Assembly: GCA_963766735.1 (NCBI GenBank)
Contig: CAVYBU010000007.1
Location: 320,001 to 384,000 of the forward strand
Source of the DNA: an uncultured Chloroflexia bacterium
Lineage (GTDB): Bacteria > Chloroflexota > Limnocylindria > Limnocylindrales > CSP1-4
Reading direction: 5' to 3'
Length of the DNA stretch: 64,000 bases
Both the position numbers and the translations under genes were made by a program. How positions within the stretch are numbered: the first letter of the stretch is position 1; the number at the start of each line of letters is the position of its first letter. The notes under the pieces are model-generated. The model made no database searches. It had not been told where the DNA came from and was given only the letters and a program-made list of their open reading frames with translations. This document shows, in pieces, positions 21,350 through 35,520 of the stretch.

Positions 21350-23617
21350 TCAGTGGCGGAAGTGCCGGGTACCGGTCACGAGCATCGCCGCGCCGGCGGC
21401 CTCGACGTCCACGAGGACCTCCGCGTCCCGCATCGATCCGCCGGGCTGGACGATGGCGCTCACGCCCGCGTCGAGCAGCACACGGGGGCCGTCCGCGAAC
21501 GGGAAGAACGCGTCCGACGCGGCGGCGGCGCCGATCGCGCCTGCTGCGCCCTGGAACAGGCGCGCCTTGTCAACGGCCCCGCGGCAGGCATCCACGCGGC
21601 TGACCTGCCCGGAGCCGACGCCGATGAGCATCCCGTCCCGCACGAGCACGATGGCGTTGGAGACCACTCCCCGGCAAAGGCGCCAGGCGAGGTCCAGGTC
21701 ACGCCGCTCGGCATCCGTCGGCGGCCGCGAGGTGGTGCAGCTCCACTCCGCGGGGTCGTCGATCAGGATGTCAGGGGCGGTGACGAGGACGGCCCCACCG
21801 GCAGTCCGGAACGACCCCAGGTAGTCCACGGCCAGGAGGCCGCGCTTCGTCAGCCCGCTCCGGTCCGCGGCAGCGTCCAGGCTCGGATCCAGGACCAGTC
21901 GCAGGTTCGGCTTCGCCGCCATGACCGCGCGGGCGTCTTCGTCGAACGCCGGCGCGACCACCACCTCGAGGAAGATCGAGACCAGCCGCTCGGCCAGGGC
22001 CCGCTCCACGGTGCCGGTGACCGCCACCACGCCGCCGAAGGCCGAGACAGGGTCGCCGGCCAGCGCCGAATCCCATGCCTCGAGCAGGGTTTCGCGCTCG
22101 GCGGCGCCGCACGGGTTCGTGTGCTTGACGATGACCACGGCGGGGCCGCGCATGAGGCGTGCGAGGGAGGCCGCGGCGGACGCGTCGAGCACGTTGTTGT
22201 AGCTGAGCGCCTTGCCCTGGAGCGGCGGCTCGCCGCTCGCGAAGGGCCCCTCCGCGGTTCGCGGTTCACGGTCGGTGCGGCGGTAGCGAGCGGCCGGCTG
22301 GTGGGGGTTCTCGCCGTAGCGGAGGGACTCGACCTTCTCGAGCGAGATCGTCAACACCGGCGGGTACGGGTCTTCGGAGCCTGGCAGACCGGGCTCCGGG
22401 GGAAGCTCCACCCCCGCCTCGAGCATCCGGCACGGCAGCTCCGCGGCAATGCGCGCGTCGTAGGCGGCGGTGTGGCGGAACGCCTCCACGGCAAGCGCGG
22501 ATCGGAGGCCCAGCGGGACCTCGCCCTGCTCGTCCAGCGCGGCAAGGACCTCGCCGTACTGCGCGGGCGAGGTGACGATCGCCACCGACGCGTGGTTCTT
22601 GGCGGCAGCGCGGACCATCGACGGCCCGCCGATGTCGATCTCCTCCACGAGGCCGTCGAAGGAGAGGTCGGACCTGCGGGCGGCGGCGGCGAACGGGTAG
22701 AGGTTGACGACGACGAGACCGAAGGGCGCGATGCCTGAGGCCAGGAGCGCCTCGCGGTGGTCGGCGCGGCGACGGTCCGCGAGGAGTCCTCCGTGGACCC
22801 GCGGGTGGAGCGTCTTCACGCGGCCGTCGAGCATCTCCGGGAAGCCGGTCACGGCCGCGACATCGGTCACGGGGAGACCCGCCTCGCGCAGTGCCCGCGC
22901 CGTGCCGCCGGTGCTGACCAGCTCCCAGCCACGGGCGACCAGGCCGCGACCCAGCTCGGCCAGGCCGGTCTTCTCGTAGACGGAGAGGAGGGCCCGTCGC
23001 GGGACGGGGAGGCGGGCATCGGCAACGGCCGTGTCCAGGCGCGCGCGCCGGGCGCCGGGGGCCACCGTGAGCGCCCCGGCCAGCAGCGCTGCCACGGTTG
23101 CCGGCAGGAGCCGGTGCTCGATCGGGTGGATCCGCGCCAGCAGCGAGGCCTCGTCGTCGTCCGGCAGCACCGGGACCGCCTCCTGGGCTGCGATCGGCCC
23201 ACCGTCCAACGTGGCGTCCACGAGGTGCACGGTCACGCCGCTCACGGCCACGCCGGCGGCCAGGGCGTCGCGCACCGCATGGAGGCCGGGAAATGACGGC
23301 AGCAGAGATGGATGGACGTTCAGGATCCGGCCACCGAAGGCCGCCAGGACCGCGGGGCCGATCAACCGCAGATACCCGGCCAGGACGACGACGTCCGGGG
23401 CCACGGCCAGCAGCGTCTCGGCCAGCGTCTCGTCATCGCCGCCGGGGACCAGGATCGTGTCGATCCCCTGCTCCGCCGCCCAGTCCAGCCCCGGGCACGG
23501 CCGATCCGCGAAGACGAGGACCACGTCACCGCCCAGCGTCCCCCGCCCCGCCGCTGCGACCAGCGAGCGCAGGTTGGACCCGGTGCCCGACACCCCGACC
23601 GCGATCCTGCCGCTCAC
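21350..23617 (-). CDS. purH: Fused PurN-PurH: GAR transformylase plus IMP cyclohydrolase/AICAR transformylase
   Basis: N-terminal PurN (SGTGSNL, LAGYL, NVHPSLLP, LDGGPI) is in frame with PurH (RALLSV, STGGT, GRVKTLHP, IDIGGP, RYGENPHQ, KHTNPCG, SDAFFPF, RHFRH). Confidence 0.93.
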   Translation of the reverse strand: MSGRIAVGVSGTGSNLRSLVAAAGRGTLGGDVVLVFADRPCPGLDWAAEQGIDTILVPGGDDETLAETLLAVAPDVVVLAGYLRLIGPAVLAAFGGRILNVHPSLLPSFPGLHAVRDALAAGVAVSGVTVHLVDATLDGGPIAAQEAVPVLPDDDEASLLARIHPIEHRLLPATVAALLAGALTVAPGARRARLDTAVADARLPVPRRALLSVYEKTGLAELGRGLVARGWELVSTGGTARALREAGLPVTDVAAVTGFPEMLDGRVKTLHPRVHGGLLADRRRADHREALLASGIAPFGLVVVNLYPFAAAARRSDLSFDGLVEEIDIGGPSMVRAAAKNHASVAIVTSPAQYGEVLAALDEQGEVPLGLRSALAVEAFRHTAAYDARIAAELPCRMLEAGVELPPEPGLPGSEDPYPPVLTISLEKVESLRYGENPHQPAARYRRTDREPRTAEGPFASGEPPLQGKALSYNNVLDASAAASLARLMRGPAVVIVKHTNPCGAAERETLLEAWDSALAGDPVSAFGGVVAVTGTVERALAERLVSIFLEVVVAPAFDEDARAVMAAKPNLRLVLDPSLDAAADRSGLTKRGLLAVDYLGSFRTAGGAVLVTAPDILIDDPAEWSCTTSRPPTDAERRDLDLAWRLCRGVVSNAIVLVRDGMLIGVGSGQVSRVDACRGAVDKARLFQGAAGAIGAAAASDAFFPFADGPRVLLDAGVSAIVQPGGSMRDAEVLVDVEAAGAAMLVTGTRHFRH

Positions 23618-24747
23618 CCCGCGAGCCCCTCCTCCACGTACCGCTTGCCGCCGAGCGCCGCGGCGTCCACGACCTCGCCCACGACCCAGGCCGGGATTCC
23701 ACGCTCCCGCGCCAGCTCCACGGTAGCCGCGGCGGCTCCCGCCGGCACGACGATCACCATCCCCAGCCCCGCGTTGAACGTCGCGCGCAGCTCCGCCTCC
23801 GCGATCCCCCCGAGCGTCCCCAGCACGCGCATGACCGAGGGCATCGGCCAGAGCGACGGGTCCAGGCGGGCTCCAAGCGCTTCAGGCAATGCGCGCGGAA
23901 CGTTGCCGGGCAGGCCTCCACCAGTGACGTGGGCGATCCCGCGAACCTCGTGGCCCGCCGCCCCGAGGGCGGAGCGCATCGCCAGCATGTCCTTCGCGTA
24001 GATCCGCGTGGGCGTCAGAAGGACGTCACCCAGCGTCGCATCGGCGTCGAGCATCTCCCGCACCAGCGCCTCGTCTGCCGAGGCGTCGCCCAGCACCCGC
24101 CGGAGCAATCGCACATACGCCTCTCCAAGATCCAGCCGGTGCTCGGCGATCAGTCCTCGCACCAGCGAGTACCCGTTCGCATGCAGCCCTGAGGACGCCA
24201 GCCCCACGATCGCGTCGCCGGCCCGGGCGGCGGACCCGTCCAGCAGCCGCGACCGCTCGCCCACCCCGATGCAGAACCCCGCCAGGTCGAACGCGTCAGG
24301 CTCCATCACGCCCGGGTGCTCCGCCGTCTCGCCACCAGTGAGCGCGCAGCCCGCCTGGCGGCAGCCCTCGGCGATCCCCGACACCAGCGCGGCCACCCGG
24401 TCCGGGTCCAGTCTCCCGATCGCGATGTAGTCCAGGAACGCCAGCGGCTCGGCTCCCGTGCACGCCACGTCGTCCGCGCACATCGCGACGAGGTCGATCC
24501 CGATCGTGTCCAGCCGCCCCAGCGCGGCCGCAATCGCCGTCTTCGTGCCCACGCCGTCCGTGGACGAGATGATGACGGGCTCCCGGTAGCCAGCCGGGAT
24601 CGCCACCGCGGAGCCGAACCCGCCCAGGCCGTCCAGCACCTCCGGCCGCCAGGTGGATGCCACGGACCCGCGCATCAGCTCCACGGCCCGCTCGCCGGCG
24701 GCGACATCGACCCCGGCGCGTGCGTAGGCGGCCCGCTCGCCGGTCAT
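23614..24747 (-). CDS. purM: Phosphoribosylformylglycinamidine cyclo-ligase (AIR synthetase)
   Basis: YARAGVD, TDGVGTK, GGETAE, SSGLHANGYSL, HVTGGG and TFNAG motifs. Confidence 0.96.
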   Translation of the reverse strand: MTGERAAYARAGVDVAAGERAVELMRGSVASTWRPEVLDGLGGFGSAVAIPAGYREPVIISSTDGVGTKTAIAAALGRLDTIGIDLVAMCADDVACTGAEPLAFLDYIAIGRLDPDRVAALVSGIAEGCRQAGCALTGGETAEHPGVMEPDAFDLAGFCIGVGERSRLLDGSAARAGDAIVGLASSGLHANGYSLVRGLIAEHRLDLGEAYVRLLRRVLGDASADEALVREMLDADATLGDVLLTPTRIYAKDMLAMRSALGAAGHEVRGIAHVTGGGLPGNVPRALPEALGARLDPSLWPMPSVMRVLGTLGGIAEAELRATFNAGLGMVIVVPAGAAAATVELARERGIPAWVVGEVVDAAALGGKRYVEEGLAG

Positions 24748-26198
24748 CGGGCCTCCACCGCCCCCACGGACCCTTCGAGCATGAACTTGCGCGCCGACAC
24801 GTCGTAGGGGACGGGCACCGGGTACCTGCCGTCGAAGCAGGCGAAGCAGAACTGGTCGTAGGGCAGGTCCAGCGCCGCCAGGACGCCGCGGATGGACAGG
24901 TAGCCCAGCGAGTCCGCCCCGATGAAGTCGCGGATCTCGTCGACCGAGTGACTGCCGGCGATCAGCTCGGTGTCGATCGCCGTGTCGATGCCGTAGAAGC
25001 ACGGGTGGTAGATCGGCGGGGCCGAGATCCGGACGTGGATCTCCCGGGCGCCGGCGCGCCGCAGAAGGCCCACGATCTGCTTGGTCGTGGTGCCGCGGAC
25101 GATCGAGTCGTCCACGACGATCAGGCGCTTGTCGCGGACGACCTCGCGCAGGGGGCTCAGCTTGACGTTGACGCCGCGCTGGCGCATCGCCTGGGAGGGC
25201 TGGATGAACGTCCGGCCGCTGTAGCGGTTGCGGACCATCCCCTCGCGGTACGGGATCCCGGATGCCTCCGCGAAGCCCGCCGCGGCCGGCGCGCCCGTGT
25301 CCGGCACGGGCATCACCATGTCGGCCTCCACCGCGTGCTCCGAGGCCAGCTGGATCCCCATCTGGCGGCGCGCCTCGTACAGGTTGCGCCCCAGCATGTA
25401 TGAGTCGGGCCGGGCGAAGTAGATGAGCTCGAACACGCACAGGGCGGGCGTTGCGGTTGCGTAGCGCACCGAGACGGGCTCGCGGCCGGGCTCCAGGATG
25501 ACGATCTCGCCGGGTTCCACGTCCCGGACCAGCTCCGCGCCGACGATGTCGAGCGCGGCGGTCTCGGACGCGAGGATCCAGCCGCCGGTGTCGTCGCCCC
25601 AGAGGTCGGGACCGCCGGCGTCGGCCGGGACCGGGAGGCGGCCGAGCACGAGCGGACGGAAGCCGTGCGGGTCACGGACGCCGATGACGCGGTGCTCGTC
25701 GAGGATCACGAGGCTGAACGCTCCACGGACACGCGGCAGGACCTTGCGAAGGGCATCCACGGTGTCGTCCGCGGGCTCGTCCGCGAGGAGGGCCGTCAGC
25801 AGCTCCGTGTCCGTGCTGGCAGGGAGCCGGCCACGGCCGCCACGGAGCTGCTCGAGGAGCTCTCGCGTGTTGACGAGGTTCCCGTTGTGGCCGATGGCGA
25901 GGGCGCGCCGTGGGCCCAGGCGGAGCGTCGGCTGGGCGTTCTCCCAGACCGTGGAGCCCGTGGTGGAATAGCGGCAGTGGGCCACGGCCAGGTCCCCGGC
26001 CAGCGACGGGATCCGTCGCTCGTCCAGCACCTGGCCCACCATGCCCAGGTCCTTGTAGATCATGAGGTGTTGACCGTCGGACACGCCGACGCCCGCCGAT
26101 TCCTGGCCCCGGTGCTGGAGTGCGAAGAGGGCGGTCGCCGCCACGGCCGCCGCCTCGTGGCCACGGTTGGGCAGGACGACCCCGACCACGCCGCACAT
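24744..26198 (-). CDS. purF: Amidophosphoribosyltransferase
   Basis: N-terminal MCG, LQHRGQESAG, HNGNL, CVFELIYFARPDS, VDDSIVRGTT and CFACF motifs. Confidence 0.97.
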   Translation of the reverse strand: MCGVVGVVLPNRGHEAAAVAATALFALQHRGQESAGVGVSDGQHLMIYKDLGMVGQVLDERRIPSLAGDLAVAHCRYSTTGSTVWENAQPTLRLGPRRALAIGHNGNLVNTRELLEQLRGGRGRLPASTDTELLTALLADEPADDTVDALRKVLPRVRGAFSLVILDEHRVIGVRDPHGFRPLVLGRLPVPADAGGPDLWGDDTGGWILASETAALDIVGAELVRDVEPGEIVILEPGREPVSVRYATATPALCVFELIYFARPDSYMLGRNLYEARRQMGIQLASEHAVEADMVMPVPDTGAPAAAGFAEASGIPYREGMVRNRYSGRTFIQPSQAMRQRGVNVKLSPLREVVRDKRLIVVDDSIVRGTTTKQIVGLLRRAGAREIHVRISAPPIYHPCFYGIDTAIDTELIAGSHSVDEIRDFIGADSLGYLSIRGVLAALDLPYDQFCFACFDGRYPVPVPYDVSARKFMLEGSVGAVEAR

Positions 26199-28540
26199 CA
26201 GCCGCCGGACTCCCAGCCGAGCGCCCGAGGCAGACCGTGCTCCCACGCGTGCCGCAGGTCCGCCACCGGGACCTCCAGCGCATCCGCGATCCGGCTGCCG
26301 CGCTCCTCGGCGGCGCCCGTGGCGCCCTCGCCGGTCAGCTCCACGACCAGGCGGTGGCCACCGGTCGCCCCGAGCGTCTCCACCGGCAGGCCGTGATGGC
26401 GGGCAAGGAGCGCGAGGGCCGGTGCGTGGCGCTGCGTCGTCTCCACGACCAGGCGCGACGGGCTCTCCCCGAACAGCGCCACGGCCGGCGAGTCGCCGAC
26501 GCCGAGCCTCAGCTGCGCGCCCACGTCGCCCCAGATGCACATCTCGGCGAGCGCCACGGCCAGGCCGCCGCCGGAGACGTCCTGGCAGCTCTCCACGAGG
26601 CCCCGGGCAATGGCCTCCCGGATGAACGCCTGCAGCCGTGTCTCCACGGCCAGGTCAAGGACCGGCGGGCCGTCCTCGAAGGCGCTGCCCGCCAGGCGGG
26701 CGTACTCGCTGCCGGCGAGGCCCGGGCCCGCGTGACCGACCAGCAGCACGGCACTCCCGGCCGCGACGAACGCCGGACCGACGCGCCTGGACACGTCCGT
26801 CAGCAGCCCCACGATCCCGATCTCCGGCGTGGGCGCGATGGCGGAGCCGGGCGCCTCGTTGTAGAGCGAGACGTTGCCACCCGTGACCGGAAGGCCCAGT
26901 GCGGTGCACGCGTCGGCAAGACCACGGACGCCCTCTGCCAGGGCCCAGAAGGCCTCCGGCCGCGTCGGATCGCCGTAGTTGAGGCAGTTGGTCACGCCCA
27001 GCGGCCGCGCGCCGGTGATGGACACGTTGCGCGAGGCCTCGGCAACCGACATGGCGGCGCCCAGCCACGGGTCCACGGCGCTGACCGGGGCGTTGCCGTC
27101 CGTCGTGGCGACCAGCGCCTTCGTCGTGCCCTTGATCCGGATCACTGCCGCCCCTCGCCCGGGGCCGGTCACGGTGTTGGCCTGGACGTTGTGGTCGTAC
27201 TGCTCGTAGACGGACCGGCGCGACGAGAGGTTCGGCGAACCGAGCAGCGCCACCAGCACGGCACCGGGGTCCTGGCCGCGGAGCGGCAGCTGGTCCACAG
27301 GCTCCGCAGGGGCACCGGGAGCGGGGGCCGGGCGACGCCGGGCCGGTGCCCGCGACACACGTTCGAAGACGATTGCCTCGGACGCCAGGGCGCGCGCAGG
27401 GATGCGGGCGAGCTCCTCGGCGCCGCTCACCGGGCGGCCGTCGGCATCCAGCGCGCCGCGACCGCCGGGTCCCGTGAGAATGACGATATCCCGCTCCCCC
27501 GTGACCCGGCCGATGATCGCAACGGGCAGGTCCCACCGCTCGCAGACAGCTCGGACTCCCTCCCAGCGCGCGGGCTCAACGATCGCGACCATCCTCTCCT
27601 GAGACTCGGAGATCATGACCTCGAACGGCTCGAGGCCCGGCTCCCGGCGCGGGATCGCGTCCAGGTCCACCAGCATCCCGGTGCCGCCGCGGTCCGCGGT
27701 CTCGCAGGTGGCGCACGTGATCCCGGCGGCGCCCAGGTCCTGGATCGAGACGACGAGACCCTTCGCGATCAGCTCCAGCGTCGCCTCGATGAGCAGCTTC
27801 TCCGCGAACGGGTCCCCGACCTGGACGGACGGGCGCTTGCTGGGGTCCTGCTCACCGAAGGTGGCGCTGGCGAGGACCGACGCCCCACCGATGCCGTCCC
27901 GGCCGGTCGCCGAGCCGTAGAGCACGACGAGGTTGCCGGGGCCGTCCGCGGACGCCCGCATCAGCATCCCGTCCTCGAGCAGACCGATCGCCATGACGTT
28001 GACCAGCGGATTGCCCTGGTAGGACGGATCGAACACCAGCTCGCCGCCGACGGTGGGCACGCCCACGCAGTTGCCGTAGCCGCCCACGCCGCGTACGACG
28101 CCGTCGACGAGGTGTCGCGTCCGGGCATCGGACGGATCCCCGAAACGCAGCGCGTCCAGGACGGCGATCGGGCGCGCGCCCATTGCGAACACGTCGCGCA
28201 GGATGCCGCCGACGCCGGTCGCGGCGCCCTGGTACGGCTCCACGGCGGACGGGTGGTTGTGGCTCTCGATCTTGAACGCGACCGCCAGGCCGTCGCCGAT
28301 CGCGATGACCCCCGCCTGCTCCCCCACCCCGGCGACAACGTCCTCGCCCTTCGTCGGGAGGGTGGCGAGCAGCGGCCGGGAGCTCTTGTAGGAGCAGTGC
28401 TCGCTCCACATGACGCTGAACATGGCCAGCTCGAGGTCGTTGGGGTCCCGGCCCAGCTTCGCCCGGATCGCCTCGAGCTCCACGTCCTCGAGCCCGAGGG
28501 TCCGGTGCAGCGGCATCGGCGGGATCGCGGACGCGGTCAT
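26198..28540 (-). CDS. purL: FGAM synthase subunit PurL (small form)
   Basis: [41 protein letters not shown] and LFGESPSR motifs. Confidence 0.97.
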
Positions 28541-29298
28541 CGCACGCCCCCGGTGGCCACGACACCCGTGCCCGCGATCGAGCCCGTGCTGGCCCATTCC
28601 GCGGCGCTCACCACCAGCGAGCGGATGATGCCCAGGCCATCGTCCGAGCCGAGGATCGACTCGACCGCGGTCTCCGGGTGGGGCATCAGCCCCGCCACGT
28701 TGCCCGCGGCGTTGCGCACGCCCGCGATCCCGCGCAGCGACCCGTTCGGGTTGCCGGCATCGTCCGGTCCCGCGACGGAGCCGTCCCCGTTCGCGTAGCG
28801 CCACAGCACGCCGCCGTCGCGCTCCAGCTCGTCCAGCGTCGCCTCGTCAGCGTAGTAGCAGCCCTCACCGTGGGCGACGGGCATCCGCAACGGCCGCCGT
28901 GCCCCGATCTCGCGCGTGAACGGCGAGTCCATGTGCTCGGGCAGGAGGGTGACCTCACGGCAGACGAACCGCAGGCCGCGGTTGCGCAGCAGGGCACCCG
29001 GCACCAGACTCGCCTCGGCGAGGACCTGGAACCCGTTGCAGATGCCCAGGACCGGGCCGCCCCGCTCCGCGAAGTCCGCCACGGCGCGCATCACGGGACT
29101 GAACCGCGCGATGACGCCGGCGCGCAGGTAGTCCCCGTACGCAAACCCGCCCGGGAGCAGGATCCCGGCGACGCCCGCCAGGTCCGCGTCCTCGTGCCAC
29201 AGGATCTCCGGCTCGGCACCAGCCACGCGCAGGGCATTGACCGCGTCGATGTCCCTGTTGGAGCCCGGGAACAGGACGACCCCGACGCGCACCGTCAC
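28537..29298 (-). CDS. purQ: FGAM synthase glutaminase subunit PurQ
   Basis: [33 protein letters not shown] and MPHPE motifs. Confidence 0.97.
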
Positions 29299-29600
29299 CC
29301 GTGCGTCCCCGTATCGGCCACCACGACCTCGCCCACCTCGCCCAGCGGCTCGACCTCGAACAGCTCCATCAGCGGGTTCGAGAGCAGCTCGCCCGCCAGT
29401 CGGTCCACCACGGCCCGGGCGGCGGCCTCGTCGGCGGCCTCCACGACCATCTCGACCCGGCGGCCGACCCGGACTCCGCTCACCCCGGTGATGCCGAGGT
29501 GCGGGAGGCTGCGCTCAACGGCCTTTCCCTGGGGGTCCAGGATGCCGGGCTTGGGCGTGACGTTGACGGCGTAGCGGTAGGCGCGGGCCGGGTCGCTCAT
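29295..29600 (-). CDS. purS: FGAM synthase subunit PurS
   Basis: KPGILDPQGKAV...LLSNPLME; lies between purC and purQ. Confidence 0.95.
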   Translation of the reverse strand: MSDPARAYRYAVNVTPKPGILDPQGKAVERSLPHLGITGVSGVRVGRRVEMVVEAADEAAARAVVDRLAGELLSNPLMELFEVEPLGEVGEVVVADTGTHG

Positions 29601-30514
29601 CGTGCGATGACATCCTCCGTGAGATAGCGGGCGAAGCTCGCCCCGGTGATGCGTTCGAAGGCCTCGACGTAGCGGGTCCGGGTGCCGGCCACCACGTCCT
29701 CCGGGAGCTCCGGCCCGGGCGCGGTCTTGTCCCACGGCTGCCGCTCCAGCCAGTCGCGGACGAACTGCTTGTCATAGCTGGCCTGGGCACGCCCCGGTTC
29801 ATACGCCGCGGCATCCCAGAAGCGCGAGGAATCCGGCGTCATGACCTCGTCGATGAGCACCAGCGCGCCCGACGACACGAGGCCGAACTCGAACTTGGTG
29901 TCCGCGAGGATGATCCCGACCCGCTCGCATTGGGCGGCGCCGCGGTGGTAGAGCGCGAGCGAGACCGAACGCACCTGCTCCGCCAGCTCCTCGCCGATCA
30001 ACTCCTGAACGTGGTGGAAGTCGACGTTCTCGTCGTGCTGGCCGGCCGGCGCCTTCGAGGCCGGCGTGAAGATGGCCGACGGCAGGCGGTCGCTCTCGCG
30101 GATGCCATCCGGGAACCTGATCCCGCAGACGGCGCCGGTGGCCTGGTAGTCCCTCCAGCCGGAACCGCTGAGGTATCCGCGCACGACGCATTCCACCGGC
30201 AGGACGGAGGCTTGGCGACCGAGCATGATCCGGCCGCGGAGGTCCGCGATGAGCCACGGGTCGCCCCGCGTGATCTCCTCGGGGAGGTCCACGGGATCCG
30301 TGGCCAGCAGGTGGTTCGGGACGATGTCGGTCGTCTCGGAGAACCAGAACCGAGAGAGGCCGGTCAGGATCCGGCCCTTGTCGGGGATCGGCGTGGGCAG
30401 GACGACGTCGAAGGCGGACAGGCGATCGCTGGCGACCAGGAGGAGGCGGTCGTCGTCGACGCGGTACAGGTCCCGGACCTTGCCGGACCGCACAAAGGAA
30501 TCAGCGAGCGGCAT
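29597..30514 (-). CDS. purC: SAICAR synthase
   Basis: SGKVRDLY, SDRLSAFD, ECVVRGY, DTKFEFG, TPDSSRFW and DKQFVRDWL motifs. Confidence 0.97.
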   Translation of the reverse strand: MPLADSFVRSGKVRDLYRVDDDRLLLVASDRLSAFDVVLPTPIPDKGRILTGLSRFWFSETTDIVPNHLLATDPVDLPEEITRGDPWLIADLRGRIMLGRQASVLPVECVVRGYLSGSGWRDYQATGAVCGIRFPDGIRESDRLPSAIFTPASKAPAGQHDENVDFHHVQELIGEELAEQVRSVSLALYHRGAAQCERVGIILADTKFEFGLVSSGALVLIDEVMTPDSSRFWDAAAYEPGRAQASYDKQFVRDWLERQPWDKTAPGPELPEDVVAGTRTRYVEAFERITGASFARYLTEDVIAR

Positions 30515-31829
30515 CGGGATCCCCCTTGCGCTCGAGCGCGTCCAGGCGGGCGATCACCTCCGGCACGTGCCGGAGGACCGCTGCGTCATCGAAGCAGGAA
30601 TCGAGGTCCGCGAGCGGCAGCCGCCCGGCGACCGCGGGATCCGTGGCCAGGAGGTCGTGAAGCGGCACCCGCTCGTCGGCGGCCCGCAGGGCATTGCGCT
30701 GGACGATGGCGTAGGCGTCCTCGCGCGACAGCCCGGCCGTCTCGACCAGGGCCAGCAGCACCCGCGAGGAGGCATGGAGCCCAAGGCCGCGCTCGATGTT
30801 CTCGCGCATCCGCTCCGGGCGGACCACCAGCCCTTCGACCAGGCCCGTCGTCCTGACCAGCATGTAGTCCAGCAGCGTCGTGGCGTCGGGGAGGATCACC
30901 CGCTCCGCGGAGCTGTGGCTGATGTCGCGCTCGTGCCACAGGGGCTGGTTCTCGAGGGCCGTGTGGGCGTAGCCGCGCAGGAGCCGCGCGAGACCCGCGA
31001 TCCGCTCGGACAGGATCGGGTTGCGCTTGTGGGGCATGGCGCTCGAGCCCTTCTGGCCGCTCCTGAACGGCTCCATGACCTCGGCGATCTCGGTGTGCTG
31101 GAGGTTGCGGACCTCGGTTGCGAGCCGCTCGAGGGTGCCGCCGAGGATCGCGATCGCCGCGAGGAAGGCGGCGTGACGGTCCCGCTGGACGATCTGGGTG
31201 CTGACCGGGTCCACGCGCAGGCCCAGGTCAGCGAGCACCTCCGCCTCGAGATCGGGGCCGAGGTGGCTGTACGTCCCAACCGGGCCACTGATCTTGCCGG
31301 TGGCGATCTCGGCGGTGGCCTGCGCCAGGCGCTCGCGGCCGCGGGCGACCTCGAACGCCCAGCCGGCGCACTTCAGGCCGAAGGTCGTGGGCTCCGCGTG
31401 CACGGAGTGCGTGCGACCCATCATCACGGTGCCTGCCTCGCGCCGGGCACGGGCGATGAGGGCGGCGAGCAGGTTGTCCGCATCGAACAGGAGGCGTTCC
31501 CCGGCGGCCCGCAGTTGGAGCGCCAGCGCAGTATCCACGACGTCGCTGCTGGTCAGGCCCAGGTGCAGGAACCGCCCCTCGGGCCCCACGCTCTCCGCCA
31601 CCTGCGAGACGAAGGCGATGACGTCGTGATCCGTGGTCGCCTCGATCTCGGCGATCCGGTCCACGTCCACGACCGCGCGGACCTCGATGACGGCCAGTGC
31701 CTCGGCCGGAACGAGCCCGCGACGGACCTGCGCCCGGCAGACGGCGATCTCCACCTCGAGCATGCGCTCGAAACGGGCCTGCTCGGACCAGGTGGCAGCC
31801 ATCTCCGGGAGCGTGTAGCGGCGGATCAC
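30501..31829 (-). CDS. purB: Adenylosuccinate lyase
   Basis: HDVIAF, GLTSSD, GRTH, GSSAMPHKRNP and HERDISHS motifs. Confidence 0.97.
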   Translation of the reverse strand: MIRRYTLPEMAATWSEQARFERMLEVEIAVCRAQVRRGLVPAEALAVIEVRAVVDVDRIAEIEATTDHDVIAFVSQVAESVGPEGRFLHLGLTSSDVVDTALALQLRAAGERLLFDADNLLAALIARARREAGTVMMGRTHSVHAEPTTFGLKCAGWAFEVARGRERLAQATAEIATGKISGPVGTYSHLGPDLEAEVLADLGLRVDPVSTQIVQRDRHAAFLAAIAILGGTLERLATEVRNLQHTEIAEVMEPFRSGQKGSSAMPHKRNPILSERIAGLARLLRGYAHTALENQPLWHERDISHSSAERVILPDATTLLDYMLVRTTGLVEGLVVRPERMRENIERGLGLHASSRVLLALVETAGLSREDAYAIVQRNALRAADERVPLHDLLATDPAVAGRLPLADLDSCFDDAAVLRHVPEVIARLDALERKGDPDAAR

Positions 31830-33160
31830 CGGGCGACCTCCAGCGCTGCGGGGTGTGGCAGGTCCAGCGCGATGTCGCGCCGGCGCTGCAGGCCATCCCA
31901 GGTGATGGACTCCGCGGCCACCTCGGCCGCCACCCGTGCTGCCGCCAGGTCCGGGCCCCGCCCGACGACCGTCAGCACCCGACCGCCGTTCGTCCCGAAG
32001 CCGGTGCCGTCCTGCTGCGCCACGGTTCCCGCATGGAACACCAGCGCACCCCGGTCCCGGGCGGCGTCCAGGCCGCTGATCGGGTCACCGCGGCGTGGGT
32101 CGCCGGGGTAGCCCGCTGCAGCCAGGACGATCCCCACGGCGGCGCCCGGCATGACCGGCACCCGCGGCGGGAGGGTGTCCGCGAGGCTGCCCTGCGCGGC
32201 GGCAAGGAGCAGCGGGCCCAGGTCGGCGGCGACGCGCGGCAGGATCACCTGCGCTTCGGGATCCCCCAGGCGGACGTTGATCTCCAGCATGACCGGCCCG
32301 TCGGTCGTGAGCATCAGGCCCGCGTACAGGAAGCCGCGGAAGGGGGCGCCTCGACGGGCCATCTCGGCGAGGATCGGCCGGTGGACGGTCTCGAGCACCT
32401 TCTCGACTGCGGCATCGCCCAGGTCCGGGAGCGGCGAGTAGGCGCCCATGCCGCCGGTATTGGGGCCTGCGTCGCCGTCGCACAGGCGCTTGTGGTCCCG
32501 GGCGGCCGGCAGGGCCACGACCCGCTCCCCGTCGCAGATGGCGATGACGCTGGCCTCCCGGCCCGTCAGCCGCTCCTCCACGACCAGGGCGGGAGCGTCT
32601 CCCGGACGGCCCTCCAGGAAGGAGGGTGCCAGCTCGAGGGCCTGCGCGATCGACGTCGTGACGACGACGCCCTTCCCCGCCGCCAGGCCGTCCGCCTTGA
32701 GGACCACCCCGACGTCGGCACCGGCCAGCTCCCGGATGAACGCCAGCGCGGCGTCCGTCTGGTCTCCGGCGAAGCTTCGGGCTCGGGCCATTGGCACTCC
32801 GGCGTCCTGTGCGACCTCATGGCAGAACGTCTTGGACGTCTCGAGCCGCGCGGCCTCCCTCGTCGGCCCGAAGACCGGTATGCCGGCGGCGCCCAGGGCA
32901 TCCGCGACGCCGACCGAGAGAGGGGCCTCCGGCCCGACGACCACGAGGTCGACGGCGGCGGCGCGGGCGAGAGCGGCCACGGCACCGGGGTCCATCGGGT
33001 CAACGGCAAGCGTCCTCACGCGTGGCTCAGCGTTGATCGCCGCGCCACCGGGTGCGACCAGCACCTCGGCGATTCCGTGCTCGTGAGCCAGCTTCCAGGC
33101 GAGCGCGTGCTCGCGGCCTCCTCCGCCGAGGACCAGGATGCGGGCGGGCACCTCGCGCAT
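31826..33160 (-). CDS. purD: Phosphoribosylamine-glycine ligase
   Basis: GGGGREHAL, GPEAPL, KADGLAAGKGV, GPNTGGMGAY, RLGDPE and GGRVL motifs. Confidence 0.97.
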   Translation of the reverse strand: MREVPARILVLGGGGREHALAWKLAHEHGIAEVLVAPGGAAINAEPRVRTLAVDPMDPGAVAALARAAAVDLVVVGPEAPLSVGVADALGAAGIPVFGPTREAARLETSKTFCHEVAQDAGVPMARARSFAGDQTDAALAFIRELAGADVGVVLKADGLAAGKGVVVTTSIAQALELAPSFLEGRPGDAPALVVEERLTGREASVIAICDGERVVALPAARDHKRLCDGDAGPNTGGMGAYSPLPDLGDAAVEKVLETVHRPILAEMARRGAPFRGFLYAGLMLTTDGPVMLEINVRLGDPEAQVILPRVAADLGPLLLAAAQGSLADTLPPRVPVMPGAAVGIVLAAAGYPGDPRRGDPISGLDAARDRGALVFHAGTVAQQDGTGFGTNGGRVLTVVGRGPDLAAARVAAEVAAESITWDGLQRRRDIALDLPHPAALEVAR

Positions 33161-33176
33161 CGGCGTGCTCGTGGGC

Positions 33177-34484
33177 CTACGCGGGTGTGGGCGGGCGGTG
33201 GCGCATCGGCCTCCACGCACGCTCGATCGTCTGGGTGCGCTCCGGTCCCACGGACACGAAGACGATGGGCACGCCGGCGTGGTCCTCGAGGGCCGTCACG
33301 TAGCGGCGGGCGTTCTCAGGCAGGTCCGCCAACGAGCGCACTTCGTGGATCGGCTCCTCCCAGCCCTCGAAGTCCTCGTAGACAGGCACGGCACGCGAGA
33401 GCGCGGCGCCGGACGACGGCCAGGTGTCGACCCGCCTGCCGTCGATCTCGTAGGCCACGCCCAGCCTGATCGTCTCGATGCCGGAGAGGATGTCGAGCTT
33501 GTTGAGGACGATCGCGCTGTTGGAGTTGACGGCGACGGCGTACCGCAAGGGGACGGTGTCGAACCAGCCAACGCGGCGCGCGCGACCGGTGACGGTGCCG
33601 AACTCCCGGCCGCGCTCCGCGATCCCCTTGCCGATGTCGTCGAACAGCTCGGTCGGGAACGGTCCGGAGCCCACCCGCGTGGAATATGCCTTCATGACGC
33701 CAATGACCTCGTCCACCTGGAGCGGGCCGATGCCGCCCCCGGTGCACGCGCCGCCCGCGACGGGGTTGGACGATGTGACGAAGGGGTAGCTGCCGTGGTC
33801 GAGGTCCAGGAGCGTGCCCTGGGCCCCTTCGAGGAGCACGTGGTCCCCGCGCCGGAGCGCGTCCTGGACAAGCCAGGTGCTGTCGTCCAGGTGCGGTCGC
33901 AGGCGCTCTCCCCAGGCCAGGCACTGGGCCACCAGCGGCTCGACCTCGAAGGCGTCGGTCCCCATCGCGAGGAGAAGCAGGTTCTTGTCGACGAGGGCGC
34001 GGGTGATGCGCTCGCGGAGGGTCGGCTCGTCAACCAGGTCCTCCATCCGGAGCCCCAGGCGCCAGGCTCGGTCGCCATACGTGGGCCCGATGCCGCGCCC
34101 GGTGGTTCCTACCTTGGCGCCCGCCAGCCGGCTCTCGTTGCCCTTATCGAGCGCCACGTGGTACGGCATGATCACGTGGGCGCTCCGGCTGACGCGGACC
34201 CTGGCCACGTCGATCCCGCGGGCGATCAGCATGTCCAGCTCGCGGATGAGCGTGGCCGGGTTGACGACCACCCCATTCCCGATGACCGACGTGATATGCG
34301 GATACAGGACGCCCGACGGGCACAGCTGGAGCTTCACCGTCTCGTCCCCGACCACCACCGTGTGGCCGGCGTTGTCGCCACCCTGGTAGCGGACGACCAT
34401 GGCGACCTGCTCGGCGAGGAAGTCGGTGGTCTTTCCCTTGCCTTCATCGCCCCACTGGAGGCCGACGATCACGGTCGCGGGCAT
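33177..34484 (-). CDS. purA: Adenylosuccinate synthetase
   Basis: QWGDEGKGK, GGDNAGHT, GTTGRGIGP, EGAQG and GTVTGRARRVGW motifs. Confidence 0.97.
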   Translation of the reverse strand: MPATVIVGLQWGDEGKGKTTDFLAEQVAMVVRYQGGDNAGHTVVVGDETVKLQLCPSGVLYPHITSVIGNGVVVNPATLIRELDMLIARGIDVARVRVSRSAHVIMPYHVALDKGNESRLAGAKVGTTGRGIGPTYGDRAWRLGLRMEDLVDEPTLRERITRALVDKNLLLLAMGTDAFEVEPLVAQCLAWGERLRPHLDDSTWLVQDALRRGDHVLLEGAQGTLLDLDHGSYPFVTSSNPVAGGACTGGGIGPLQVDEVIGVMKAYSTRVGSGPFPTELFDDIGKGIAERGREFGTVTGRARRVGWFDTVPLRYAVAVNSNSAIVLNKLDILSGIETIRLGVAYEIDGRRVDTWPSSGAALSRAVPVYEDFEGWEEPIHEVRSLADLPENARRYVTALEDHAGVPIVFVSVGPERTQTIERAWRPMRHRPPTPA

Positions 34485-34691
34485 CACACGTCTCCGGAAA
34501 TGAAACGACCCCGGCCCATGCCGGAGTCCTGGATAGACGCCTCCCGTGAGTGCCCGCCGGCGCTGCGGCGGACCGGGCGACCGAAGGTGCAGTCCCGTCT
34601 CACGGGGCGGACGCCGCGCCTCCCTCGAGCAATGGTCAGACCCTCCATCGCGGTCCTGGCTGAGCGCAGCCTCGAGGACCCCGGGAGTATA
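34485..34691 (-). promoter_or_regulatory. Purine operon promoter (-10 TATACT) and ~195-nt structured leader ending in an intrinsic terminator (candidate riboswitch/attenuator)
   Basis: TATACT at 34691-34686; hairpin GACTCCGGC-ATGG-GCCGGGGTC (34528-34507) followed by GTTTCATTT just before the purA ATG; several stems upstream. Confidence 0.65.
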
Positions 34692-35034
34692 CCGAACGGG
34701 GGTGCCCGCCACGTTGGATCTGGGGGTTGCGTCTGGGTTGCGACCTCGCGTGCGTGGTGGCCTTGGAGCGTGCCAGGCGGGCCTCGGCGCGAATTGAGGG
34801 CCGGCGGTGAGTCCCGGGCAAGCAGGACGTAAGGGCCGGCGAAGTCGCCTTCTCTAGGGTTCGCAGTGCCCGTCGAGATCGCCGGCCTCCGCCGACCCAT
34901 CCCCGCCAAGGCCCCGACCGGGGCCGGCACCCGACCCGCCCGCCGGAACATCGTTGCCCGCCGCGCACGCAGGATCGGCCGCATGGAGACGCGCCCAGGC
35001 ACGTCTGCGGTCCGATCGGAAGGAGACAGAGACC

Positions 35035-35520
35035 ATGAACAGGGTGCTCCTCACCGGTCGCCTCACCCGCGACCCCGAGGTTCGCACGACCGCCGGTGGC
35101 AAGGCGGTCGCAAGCTTCGCAGTCGCCACGCACGAGTACGTGGGCGGCGGCAAGGAGAAGTCCGAGTTCCACAATGTCGTCGCGTGGGACCGGCTCGCGG
35201 AGACCTGCGGCCGCTATCTCGGCAAGGGACAGCAGGTCGCGATCGAAGGCCGGCTCCAGACCCGGTCCTGGGACGACGACCAGGGCAAGCGCCACTGGAA
35301 GACCGAGGTCATCGCGAACAACGTGGAGATGCTCTCAGGTCGCCGCAAGAAGGACTACGCGGCGGAGACTGCGGCCACGGCGCTCGAGACGCAGGCGCTG
35401 GCGGCCGGGATCGCGCCCGATGCGGGCGAGCCCATCGCAGACGACGCGGGCTTCTCCGTGGCGTCCGGCGACGACAACGAGGAGGAGGACGAGGTCCTCG
35501 AGGAGGCCGTCGCGGCCTGA
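35035..35520 (+). CDS. ssb: Single-stranded DNA-binding protein (no canonical C-terminal PF tip)
   Basis: MNRVLLTGRLTRDPE, FHNVVAW, KGQQVAIEGRLQTRSW and TEVIA motifs; AAGGAG SD. Confidence 0.93.
   Translation: MNRVLLTGRLTRDPEVRTTAGGKAVASFAVATHEYVGGGKEKSEFHNVVAWDRLAETCGRYLGKGQQVAIEGRLQTRSWDDDQGKRHWKTEVIANNVEMLSGRRKKDYAAETAATALETQALAAGIAPDAGEPIADDAGFSVASGDDNEEEDEVLEEAVAA

What the first reader, a model, noticed from the sequence alone, without database searches (positions are those of the whole stretch)
34485..34691. Candidate unassigned riboswitch: two-domain structured leader with terminator/antiterminator ahead of the whole purine operon
Seen on the minus strand: -10 TATACT, then domain 1, closed by CCTCGAG/CTCGAGG (34677-34623) with inner stems GCTG/CAGC and CGATGG/CCATTG. 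Domain 2 is closed by CGCC-CCGTGAG/CTCACGG-GA-GGCG, with an ACC-TTCG-GT loop and a CCGCCG/CGGCGG hairpin. Next is an intrinsic terminator, GACTCCGGC-ATGG-GCCGGGGTC-GTTTCATTT, 13 nt before the ATG. The extreme 5' sequence (CCGG)GGTCCT duplicates the terminator's 3' arm and can pair with AGGACT(CCGG), a mutually exclusive antiterminator. Established: pur operons use guanine, PRPP (ykkC 2b) and ZTP riboswitches, sometimes in tandem. I do not see their consensus cores. There is only a weak, from-memory likeness of GCGCTCAGC...ATTGCTC to the NMT1/xanthine motif. Inference: a new or variant purine-pathway sensor, possibly two-input.
Basis: partly seen in the sequence, partly recalled or inferred. 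Interest (0 to 1): 0.8.

Follow-up and report, generated by a model that had tools for sequence, protein, structure and literature searches.

The report
Structured, translated attenuator before purine operon
A conserved, folded RNA leader with a built-in terminator sits in front of the purine-synthesis operon of an uncultured Chloroflexota lineage, and it also carries small reading frames that run through the terminator up to the first gene, so it looks like a new ribosome-dependent attenuator and not a plain riboswitch.

Summary
On the minus strand, 34485-34691 holds a -10 box, a multi-helix leader and an intrinsic terminator directly before purA. purA is the first gene of purA-purD-purB-purC-purQ-purL-purF-purM-purNH. 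No Rfam family matches.

The leader is single-copy and always lies before purA. It was found in 106 of 150 genomes of the family with model R1, and in 94 of 108 with model R2. It is almost confined to one family of Candidatus Limnocylindria.

Covariation supports six helices plus the terminator.

New finding: the leader carries conserved reading frames.
- GGAGG-N9-UUG opens a 10-codon ORF. It stops at the loop UGA, which overlaps an in-frame GUG (GUGA).
- The GUG frame stays open for 34-150 codons, through hairpin P4, the terminator and a spacer of variable length.
- It ends within -10 to +13 nt of the purA start in 73 of 73 and 85 of 89 loci, mostly as UGAUG.

Best reading: a translation-coupled attenuator with pyrBI-like logic. 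The signal it senses is unknown, and a ligand-binding aptamer is not excluded. It is novel as an RNA family and as a way to control a purine operon.

The parts
34686..34691 (-). -10 promoter box TATACT. Sequence conservation among relatives begins here.
   Evidence: Read. TATAC/TATGC is conserved in 24 of 25 genus sequences in alignment A1. The consensus promoter scan found no full sigma-70 site, so the promoter is inferred.
34623..34677 (-). Domain 1: helix P1 (CCUCGA 34672-34677 with UCGAGG 34623-34628), which encloses hairpins P2 and P2b.
   Evidence: P1 pair counts on 81 sequences include AU 48 / GU 7 / GC 5 / CG 4 at the innermost pair. Domain 1 is missing in about 8 of 81 loci.
34658..34671 (-). 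Hairpin P2 (GGCUG-CGCU-CAGCC). Its sequence varies between genera.
   Evidence: Covariation, for example GC 29 / CG 13 / UA 3 at one pair.
34629..34651 (-). Hairpin P2b (GCGAUGG / CCAUUGC). Its loop shows a Shine-Dalgarno-like GGAGG (34642-34646). Its 3' strand holds the UUG start of ORF1 (34630-34632), 9 nt after GGAGG.
   Evidence: Pairs GC 49 / CG 8 / AU 2 and GC 58 / CG 4. UUG sits at this column in 59 of 81 sequences. An SD-like word plus an in-frame start is present in 60 of 81.
34600..34632 (-). ORF1: a 10-codon mini-ORF from UUG to UGA. The UGA lies in the apical loop of hairpin Pb.
   Evidence: UGA sits at this column in 77 of 81 sequences. UUG lies exactly 10 codons upstream with an SD-like word in 52 of 81. 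Translation is inferred, not shown.
34584..34622 (-). Extended hairpin Pa/Pb. Pa is GAGGCGC (34616-34622) with GCACCUU (34584-34590). Pb is CGUCCG (34608-34613) with CGGGAC (34592-34597). The loop is CCCCGUGAGA (34598-34607).
   Evidence: On MAFFT alignment A4 (70 sequences), Pb pairs read CG 34 / UA 19 / UG 12 / GC 2 and CG 61 / GC 5 / GU 3. Pa shows AU-to-GC swaps in 5 and 8 sequences. The loop tetranucleotide is GUGA in 66 of 70.
34484..34603 (-). ORF2: 39 codons starting at the loop GUG (34601-34603, overlapping the ORF1 stop as GUGA). It runs through P4, the conserved block, the terminator and the purA Shine-Dalgarno. Its stop is UGA at 34484-34486, which overlaps the purA AUG (UGAUG).
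   Evidence: GUG sits at this column and in this frame in 77 of 81 sequences. The ORF ends -10 to +13 nt from the purA start in 73 of 73 and 85 of 89 loci, with lengths of 34-150 codons. The distance from GUGAG to ATG is in phase in 19 of 19 genus sequences and 51 of 62 others. A stop overlaps the purA start in 47 of 81 and 60 of 91.
34552..34573 (-). Hairpin P4 (GUCCGCCG-CAGCGC-CGGCGGGC). Its sequence is variable.
   Evidence: All 8 pairs show changes on both sides on A4. All 6 pairs counted on A3 do so too.
34528..34545 (-). Conserved unpaired block GGGAGGCGUCUAUCCAGG. The family consensus is GGGnnnnGU(C/G)UA(U/A)CCAGG. It abuts the terminator.
   Evidence: Nearly invariant in A3, A4 and the outgroup hits. 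Its role is unknown.
34497..34528 (-). Intrinsic terminator: a 9-bp G+C stem (34507-34528) with tail GUUUCAUUUC. In most other genera it is an 11-bp stem followed by UUUU.
   Evidence: Found by the terminator scan. 8 of 10 stem pairs show changes on both sides on A3, and 7 of 11 do on A4. Tails are listed.
33177..34495 (-). purA with its Shine-Dalgarno GGAG (34492-34495, 7 nt before the AUG at 34484).
   Evidence: Pfam Adenylsucc_synt, E 1.8e-167. Sequence read.
21350..33220 (-). The rest of the operon: purD, purB, purC, purQ, purL, purF, purM and the purN-purH fusion.
   Evidence: Pfam matches. The order purA-purD-purB-purC-purQ-purL is kept, as far as the DNA held reaches, in 90 of 93 related loci.

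Best explanation
This is a cis-acting transcription attenuator for the whole purine operon. It combines a covarying RNA fold, an intrinsic terminator and a relay of two leader reading frames.

Shown by comparison:
- The fold consists of P1, P2, P2b, Pa/Pb and P4.
- The terminator lies inside a reading frame that is kept open over 34-150 codons and always ends at the purA start codon.
- That frame begins at a GUG which overlaps the stop of a 10-codon ORF. The short ORF has a Shine-Dalgarno-like GGAGG 9 nt before its UUG.

Inferred mechanism:
1. A ribosome loads at GGAGG/UUG while RNA polymerase is still in the leader.
2. It terminates at the loop UGA and restarts at the overlapping GUG.
3. It then follows the polymerase across P4 and the 5' arm of the terminator.
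4. If it is close behind the polymerase, the terminator hairpin cannot form. The operon is transcribed, and purA is translated by stop/start coupling (UGAUG).
5. If translation is not started, or lags behind, the hairpin forms and transcription stops.

This is the logic of the E. coli pyrBI attenuator.

Not known: what sets the coupling. Two candidates remain. One is the speed or pausing of the polymerase as a function of purine NTP levels. The other is a ligand or protein that locks the P1/P2b/Pa/Pb fold and blocks the ribosome relay.
For: Conservation and location:
- BLASTN finds the leader in 23 of 24 genomes of the same genus.
- Model R1 finds it in 106 of 150 family genomes, one copy each. 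Model R2 finds it in 94 of 108.
- 81 of 81 hits lie 18-355 nt upstream of purA on the same strand.

Structure:
- 48 pairs, 82.6% paired, 37 pairs with changes on both sides, and 0 of 500 shuffles reach the score.
- The same helices are supported on a structure-blind MAFFT alignment.

Reading frames:
- The distance from the loop GUGAG to the purA ATG is 2 mod 3 in 19 of 19 genus sequences and in 51 of 62 other sequences, over 36 distinct lengths (110-452 nt).
- The distance UAUCC to ATG is in phase in 48 of 60, with 25 of 36 distinct lengths in phase. The binomial P is about 1e-5 on distinct lengths.
- Three sequences carry compensated phase shifts.
- A stop codon overlaps the purA start in 47 of 81 sequences: TGATG 43, TAATG 3, TAGTG 1. 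In a second set it does so in 60 of 91. About 7% is expected by chance.
- The frame is open from domain 1 to purA in 76 of 81, against 49 and 6 for the other two frames. From the Pb loop to purA it is open in 80 of 91, against 56 and 11.
- No alignment column has 3 or more stops in this frame.
- ORF2 ends -10 to +13 nt from the purA ATG in 73 of 73 and 85 of 89 loci.
- GUG overlaps UGA in 77 of 81. An SD-like word plus an in-frame start occurs in 60 of 81, and 52 of those are UUG at 10 codons.
- Variants keep the function with other letters. Genus g36 and the outgroup family f4 have AUGA or UGAUG in place of GUGA. One f4 sequence has the UUG directly in frame with the long ORF.

Precedents:
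- The pyrBI terminator lies inside its 135-bp leader peptide gene and is controlled by coupling (passages read in PMC4824070).
- ATP is sensed through coupling at mgtM (passages read in PMC3641672).
Against: - No direct evidence of translation or of regulated termination exists.
- The spacer shows no GC3 periodicity: 0.756 / 0.775 / 0.745.
- Stop codons in spacers are depleted only about 2.4-fold in the ORF2 frame: 5 in 1081 codons, against 12 in 1115 and 12 in 1111. G+C-rich DNA keeps frames open easily.
- 12 of 81 sequences have no AUG, GUG or UUG for ORF1; they carry AUC at that place. 5 more have a start without an SD-like word.
- 11 of 62 non-genus sequences are out of phase, and 4 of 89 ORF2 frames run on into purA.
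- The conserved blocks are invariant at third codon positions too. An RNA-level constraint is therefore primary, as expected for an aptamer.
- The elaborate, covarying fold is more than a pyrBI-type attenuator needs.
- No purine-specific pause tract was demonstrated.
Confidence: 0.5

Rival explanations
1. An orphan riboswitch. Domain 2 (the Pa/Pb hairpin with its conserved loop, P4 and the GGGnnnnGUCUAUCCAGG block), with or without domain 1, would bind a purine-pathway metabolite and set the fate of the terminator directly. The reading frames would serve only to couple purA translation, or would be gated by the aptamer.
For: - Covarying stems flank highly conserved unpaired blocks, and an intrinsic terminator follows.
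- There is no Rfam match.
- The conserved blocks are invariant at synonymous positions (alignments).
- The genome has no purine or ZTP riboswitch match, so the regulatory niche is free.
- The block before the terminator is conserved even in the outgroup.
Against: - No conserved alternative (antiterminator) pairing was found. A GGG:CCC alternative has only 3 constant pairs. MFE folds of truncated leaders disagree with one another.
- The loop-to-downstream pseudoknot has no covariation.
- The most conserved 'loop' is replaced by AUGA or UGAUG in g36 and f4 while the ORF relay is kept. That fits a translation signal better than a binding pocket.
- It is single-copy and tied to one gene in every genome.
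- An aptamer model does not predict a 34-150-codon frame that always ends at the purA start.
Confidence: 0.27
2. A protein-bound leader. An RNA-binding regulator, in the manner of PyrR or TRAP, would recognise the conserved block next to the terminator, or the Pb loop, and promote or prevent termination.
For: - A nearly invariant single-stranded block (GUCUAUCCAGG) directly abuts the 5' arm of the terminator.
- The element is single-copy and tied to one operon, as is typical for dedicated regulators.
Against: - No candidate regulator gene lies beside the element. The upstream neighbour is a divergent ssb and the downstream genes are pur enzymes.
- There are no repeated short binding motifs.
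- This model does not explain the conserved reading frames.
Confidence: 0.1
3. ORF2 is a real small, arginine-rich protein gene upstream of purA. On this view the 'leader' is mostly coding sequence, with an internal hairpin that is not a regulated terminator.
For: The frame is open and maintained in phase, and its stop is coupled to purA.
Against: - ORF2 length varies from 34 to 150 codons, and the extra part is not conserved.
- There is no GC3 signal.
- The compensatory base-pair changes and the hairpin plus U-tract are RNA features.
- The conserved blocks are fixed at the nucleotide level, not the amino-acid level.
Confidence: 0.05

Closest known systems
E. coli pyrBI attenuator (UTP-sensitive, translation-coupled attenuation)
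   Same: - A nucleotide-biosynthesis operon is preceded by a leader ORF that contains the intrinsic terminator.
- A ribosome close behind RNA polymerase would suppress the hairpin.
- The ORF ends next to the first structural gene.
The pyrBI facts come from passages read in PMC4824070 and PMC3641672.
   Different: - The pathway is purine, not pyrimidine.
- There are two relayed ORFs with a stop/start overlap inside a hairpin loop.
- An elaborate covarying multi-helix fold lies upstream.
- No NTP-specific pause tract has been identified.
- There is no sequence similarity, and the lineage (Chloroflexota) is unrelated.
Salmonella mgtCBR leader (mgtM/mgtP tandem attenuators)
   Same: - A long structured leader holds two short ORFs whose translation decides downstream transcription.
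- One of the ORFs is proposed to read ATP through coupling or uncoupling of transcription and translation.
From the abstract and passages of PMC3641672.
   Different: - The ORFs there are separate, not relayed by an overlap, and they do not span an intrinsic terminator.
- The signals there (high ATP, low proline) turn on a virulence/Mg2+ operon.
- There is no homology.
Purine-pathway riboswitches on pur operons (guanine/purine RF00167, ZTP RF01750, PRPP ykkC subtype 2b)
   Same: A 5' leader with an intrinsic terminator stands in front of purine biosynthesis genes. The biological role is recalled from general knowledge.
   Different: - No match to any of these models in the leader, in 20 relatives, or (for the purine and ZTP models) in the whole genome.
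- The architecture is different.
- Conserved reading frames run through the element.
Classical amino-acid attenuators (trp, his, leu leaders)
   Same: A leader peptide, RNA hairpins and an intrinsic terminator. Transcription and translation are coupled.
   Different: - In those leaders the leader ORF stops well before the terminator. PMC4824070 (passage read) states more than 20 bp.
- Runs of regulatory codons set ribosome stalling, and a 2:3 antiterminator competes with the terminator.
- Here the ORF covers the terminator, no codon runs are seen, and no conserved antiterminator was found.

Membership tests
Any Rfam 15 family (4227 models, including purine, ZTP, ykkC/PRPP, NMT1, THF and T-box) | A score at or near the family's gathering threshold against its covariance model | tested here: not met
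   0 matches at gathering score in the 64-kb window. At E<=10 on 34300-35000 only two chance matches appear (Prion_pknot, snoU82P), both inside purA. Twenty diverse relatives at E<=5 give 4 unrelated single matches and no recurring family.
Purine riboswitch (RF00167) | A three-way junction aptamer that the model can detect anywhere in the genome | tested here: not met
   0 matches in the own genome (93.85% complete). The control search hits B. subtilis and L. lactis.
ZTP riboswitch (RF01750) | The pfl-motif aptamer, detectable by the model | tested here: not met
   0 matches in the own genome. The control search hits 3 genomes.
Riboswitch (generic) | A conserved structured RNA with covarying helices in a 5' leader | tested here: met
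   37 of 48 pairs change on both sides, and 0 of 500 shuffles reach the score.
Riboswitch (generic) | An expression platform with mutually exclusive terminator and antiterminator pairings that are conserved | tested here: inconclusive
The terminator is conserved and covaries. The GGG:CCC alternative has only 3 constant pairs. Truncated-leader folds give no common partner.
Riboswitch (generic) | Direct, selective binding of a small molecule | not testable with these tools
   This needs in-line probing, ITC or termination assays.
pyrBI-type translation-coupled attenuator | A leader ORF with a ribosome-binding site and a start codon | tested here: met
   GGAGG-N9-UUG is present in this genome. 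An SD-like word plus an in-frame start occurs in 60 of 81 sequences. 12 of 81 lack a canonical start and 5 lack an SD-like word.
pyrBI-type translation-coupled attenuator | The intrinsic terminator lies inside the leader ORF | tested here: met
   ORF2 spans the terminator and ends -10 to +13 nt from the purA ATG in 73 of 73 and 85 of 89 loci. The phase is conserved over 36 distinct lengths.
pyrBI-type translation-coupled attenuator | NTP-sensitive pause sites before the terminator, and suppression of termination by the ribosome | not testable with these tools
   Purine-rich conserved tracts exist (GAGGAAGG, GGGAGA), but pausing and coupling need experiments.
Classical amino-acid attenuator | Runs of regulatory codons, with the leader ORF ending upstream of the terminator | tested here: not met
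   The translations show no codon runs. The ORF1 peptide reads LLEEGAxxxP. ORF2 covers the terminator.

The most novel reading that the evidence does not exclude
This is a purine counterpart of the pyrBI attenuator. A ribosome relay (mini-ORF, then a GUGA restart, then a long ORF through the terminator, then UGAUG at purA) would read the purine nucleotide supply through the pace of RNA polymerase. Alternatively, a new aptamer that locks the start sites would gate the relay. Either way it would be a previously undescribed way to control de novo purine synthesis, and a rare case of a dual-coded RNA whose 'invariant loop' is a stop/start overlap.
Probability: 0.35. Interest if true: 0.8.

Novelty: new variant of a known kind. 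Interest (0 to 1): 0.66.

Why it matters
As far as I recall, purine operons are known to be controlled by DNA-binding repressors and by guanine, ZTP and PRPP riboswitches. I know of no purine operon controlled by translation-coupled attenuation. My searches of the held library found none, and found no paper linking Limnocylindria with riboswitches.

If the relay model holds, it extends the pyrBI principle to purines. It also gives a clean natural example of three things: overlapping constraints (RNA fold plus reading frame), termination-reinitiation inside a hairpin loop, and an intrinsic terminator kept inside an ORF.

There is a practical caution as well. Conserved 'loops' in candidate riboswitches can be translation signals, so triplet phase to the downstream start is a cheap test.

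The element is also a sharp marker for one family of an abundant but uncultured soil and sediment lineage.

Tried and rejected
- The single-sequence fold of 34480-34700 gave z = -0.28, which is uninformative.
- RNAalifold on the genus alone found little covariation, with 4 of 47 pairs compensated. I therefore widened the search to the family.
- The loop pseudoknot CCCGUG:CGCGGG has 0 compensated pairs and many unpaired cells. I rejected it as a supported helix.
- The alternative pairing CGAAGG:CCUUCG between domains 1 and 2 is less consistent than Pa; one position pairs in only 29 of 72 sequences. I rejected it.
- The antiterminator search gave no result. MFE folds of leaders cut before the 3' arm gave no common partner for the 5' arm. 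The GGGA:UCCC pairing has only 3 constant pairs. This question is unresolved.
- The purA-frame N-terminal extension is rejected. That frame has recurrent stops at three alignment columns and is open in only 49 of 81 sequences.
- GC3 periodicity in the spacers is absent.
- Expression data: the look-up of sequencing runs listed 3 RNA-library runs with small shares. When laid, one 454-nt contig from an RNA library (X18, 12 differences) covers 34312-34753. It therefore bridges the leader, the terminator and the purA 5' end. The tool notes that this does not show transcription and that DNA may be present. Contigs give no ends, so I draw no conclusion from it.
- MFE and other checks on genera 'without' the motif: genus g16 has a divergent copy upstream of purA (E 1.2e-5 to 1.1e-3 with filters off) and no Rfam match. 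Replacement by a known riboswitch is therefore not seen there.
- Literature: (purA / riboswitch candidate / Chloroflexi, listing only) returned nothing relevant. One search (purA, riboswitch, orphan, structured RNA; listing and abstracts) returned no purA leader. One search (Limnocylindr* plus riboswitch) returned 0 papers. Supplementary files were not consulted, because they are closed. Motif lists in supplements of the structured-RNA discovery papers could hold this element.
- The P values treat sequences as independent. They are not independent, so I rely mainly on the count of distinct lengths.
- A3 was aligned to model R1, so it leans towards R1's helices. Pa and Pb were not in R1, and A4 is a MAFFT alignment.
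Full report
**What is there.**
On the minus strand, purA starts at 34484. Pfam gives Adenylsucc_synt with E 1.8e-167. On the same strand follow purD, purB, purC, purQ, purL, purF, purM and a purN-purH fusion. Upstream lies a divergently transcribed ssb, and beyond it gcvPB and gcvPA. The stretch 34485-34691 holds the TATACT box, several hairpins and a G+C hairpin followed by a U-rich tail. The terminator scan found that hairpin; it reported 2 sites against 0.1 expected.

**Not a known RNA family.**
Rfam 15 gives no match at gathering score in the 64-kb window. At E<=10 it gives only two chance matches, both inside purA. Twenty diverse relatives give no recurring family. The genome, 93.85% complete, has no ZTP or purine riboswitch match.

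**Distribution.**
- BLASTN finds the leader in 23 of 24 genomes of the genus and in 0 of 16 of the sister family.
- Covariance model R1 (whole leader) finds one copy in 106 of 150 genomes of the family, in 37 of 49 genera. This tally includes the unpublished genomes G121 and G178.
- Model R2 (domain 2 plus terminator) finds it in 94 of 108 family genomes and in 0 of 42 of the sister family.
- In the class, R2 finds it in 42 of 44 (own family), 0 of 6, 0 of 49 and 2 of 50, plus one weak match in the single genome of a fifth family (1 of 1). The two hits in the 2-of-50 family lie upstream of purA; the weak hit has no purA downstream.
- In the rest of the phylum there is 1 weak hit in about 136 genomes.
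- Genus g16, which looked negative, has a divergent copy.
- An exact-pattern scan of 185,579 species genomes returned 93 stretches. Of the 80 titles listed, 77 name Chloroflexota, most of them 'uncultured Chloroflexia' or Candidatus Limnocylindrales/Limnocylindria MAGs; 3 carry other labels.
- 81 of 81 R1 hits lie 18-355 nt upstream of purA on the same strand.
- 90 of 93 pattern loci show (ssb) purA-purD-purB-purC-purQ-purL as far as the DNA held reaches.

**Structure.**
A single-sequence fold is not unusual (z = -0.28), and genus-level variation is too small to decide. Family-wide data settle it. An MI scan and pair counts support the following helices:
- P1: CCUCGA with UCGAGG.
- P2: a variable hairpin.
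- P2b: GCGAnGG with CCnUUGC, with one non-canonical centre position.
- Pa: GAAGGCGC with GCACCUUC, with a central C.A.
- Pb: a 5-6 bp stem with many compensated changes.
- P4.
- The terminator.

On 81 sequences, 48 pairs are 82.6% paired and 37 pairs change on both sides. The covariation score is 0.252, against 0.123 for shuffles (0 of 500 reach it) and 0.037-0.073 when the partners are slid. The MAFFT alignment A4 is blind to structure and gives the same picture for Pa, Pb, P4 and the terminator.

CCCGUGAG is the Pb loop, and the proposed pairing has no compensated change. Domain 1 is missing in about 8 of 81 loci. I found no conserved alternative pairing.

**The unexpected part: reading frames.**
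While testing a leader-peptide rival, I found that distances inside the leader keep triplet phase.
- The distance from the loop GUGAG to the purA ATG is 2 mod 3 in 19 of 19 genus sequences and in 51 of 62 other sequences, over 36 distinct lengths from 110 to 452 nt.
- From UAUCC to the ATG, 48 of 60 are in phase, and 25 of 36 distinct lengths are in phase. The binomial P is about 1e-5 on distinct lengths.
- Three sequences carry compensating phase shifts.
- In that frame a stop overlaps the purA start in 47 of 81 sequences: TGATG 43, TAATG 3, TAGTG 1.
- The frame is open from domain 1 to purA in 76 of 81, against 49 and 6 for the other frames.
- No alignment column has 3 or more stops in that frame. 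Its only conserved start codon is the GUG of the 'invariant loop', present in 77 of 81.
- That GUG overlaps (as GUGA) the UGA stop of a 10-codon ORF. The short ORF begins at the UUG of CCGUUGC, 9 nt after the conserved GGAGG in the P2b loop.
- An SD-like word plus an in-frame start is present in 60 of 81 sequences, and 52 of those are this UUG. Twelve have no canonical start (AUC stands at that place), and 5 have a start without an SD-like word.
- The ORF from the loop GUG is 34-150 codons long. It ends between -10 and +13 nt of the purA ATG in 73 of 73 loci of the first set and 85 of 89 of the pattern-scan set.
- The second set replicates the rest: 71 of 91 are in phase, 60 of 91 have a stop overlapping the start, and the frame is open in 80 of 91 against 56 and 11.
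- Variants keep the arrangement with different letters. Genus g36 and the outgroup family have AUGA or UGAUG where the main type has GUGA. In one outgroup sequence the UUG is directly in frame with the long ORF.

**Against a simple 'it is coding' reading.**
- The spacer has no GC3 signal.
- Stops in spacers are depleted only about 2.4-fold.
- The extra length of ORF2 is not conserved.
- The conserved blocks are fixed at all codon positions.

The RNA fold and the frame are therefore two superimposed constraints.

**Mechanism.**
The terminator lies inside a maintained ORF whose stop sits on the start codon of the first gene. That is the arrangement of the pyrBI attenuator. There, a ribosome coupled to a paused polymerase suppresses the terminator within the 135-bp leader peptide gene (passages read in PMC4824070; also described in PMC3641672). 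PMC3641672 also describes ATP sensing through coupling at mgtM.

I therefore read the element as a translation-coupled attenuator with a two-ORF relay. The ribosome initiates at GGAGG/UUG, stops and restarts at GUGA in the Pb loop, translates across P4 and the terminator, and hands over to purA at UGAUG.

The comparative facts are shown. The ribosome's role and the sensed signal are inferred. The signal could be purine NTP supply acting through polymerase speed, or a ligand or protein that locks the fold around the two start sites. A pure riboswitch remains a serious rival, because the fold is elaborate and the unpaired blocks are very conserved.

**Expression data.**
These are uninformative. 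One RNA-library contig from a relative bridges the leader, the terminator and the purA 5' end, but contigs show neither ends nor transcription.

**Novelty.**
No Rfam family matches. No paper in the held library links purA leaders or Limnocylindria with riboswitches or attenuators (listings and abstracts only; supplements closed). The kind of system, transcription attenuation by a leader, is known. This RNA family, its use on a purine operon and the ORF relay are new.

Noticed in passing
window 21350-23617 (-): One ORF of 755 aa carries Formyl_trans_N (PurN), MGS and AICARFT_IMPCHas (PurH) domains. This is an apparent purN-purH fusion at the end of the operon. The ORF limits come from the mechanical ORF list only.
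   Followed up: no
window 34954-35520 (+), likely start about 35035: A single-stranded DNA-binding protein gene (translation MNRVLLTGRLTRDPEV...) is transcribed divergently from the purA leader. This ssb | leader | purA arrangement recurs in many related loci. No Pfam search was run on this ORF, so the name rests on my reading of the translation.
   Followed up: partly
L153, L169, L193: Three contigs that carry the exact motif are titled Verrucomicrobiia, proteobacterium and Candidatus Sulfotelmatobacter. L153 and L193 also have purA downstream in the usual arrangement. These contigs may be mis-binned or mislabelled Limnocylindria DNA.
   Followed up: partly
G019 (L015 and L025), G089, G093: Two copies of the leader occur on different contigs of one genome. 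G019 is listed with 8% contamination, so these are probably two strains in one bin and not a duplication.
   Followed up: no
L131-L134, L140, L141 (genus g36): This variant of the leader lacks the CCCGUGAG hairpin. It has CCCGAUGAAC or CUGAUGAAC there, and 3 extra bases before AGGUCC.
   Followed up: partly
A1 columns 8-16, upstream of the promoter (window about 34725-34745 and relatives): A short word, (AU)CCGCAACCC, recurs about 35-45 nt upstream of the -10 box in many genus members, although the surrounding DNA is not conserved. It could be a binding site in the divergent ssb/purA promoter region.
   Followed up: no
Leader variants L063, L066, L067, L073, L084, L089, L090: Where the UUG start is missing, an AUC stands at that place behind the same GGAGG(U). 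In at least L063 and L084 it is in frame with the long ORF and not with the mini-ORF. This may be a non-canonical start.
   Followed up: partly
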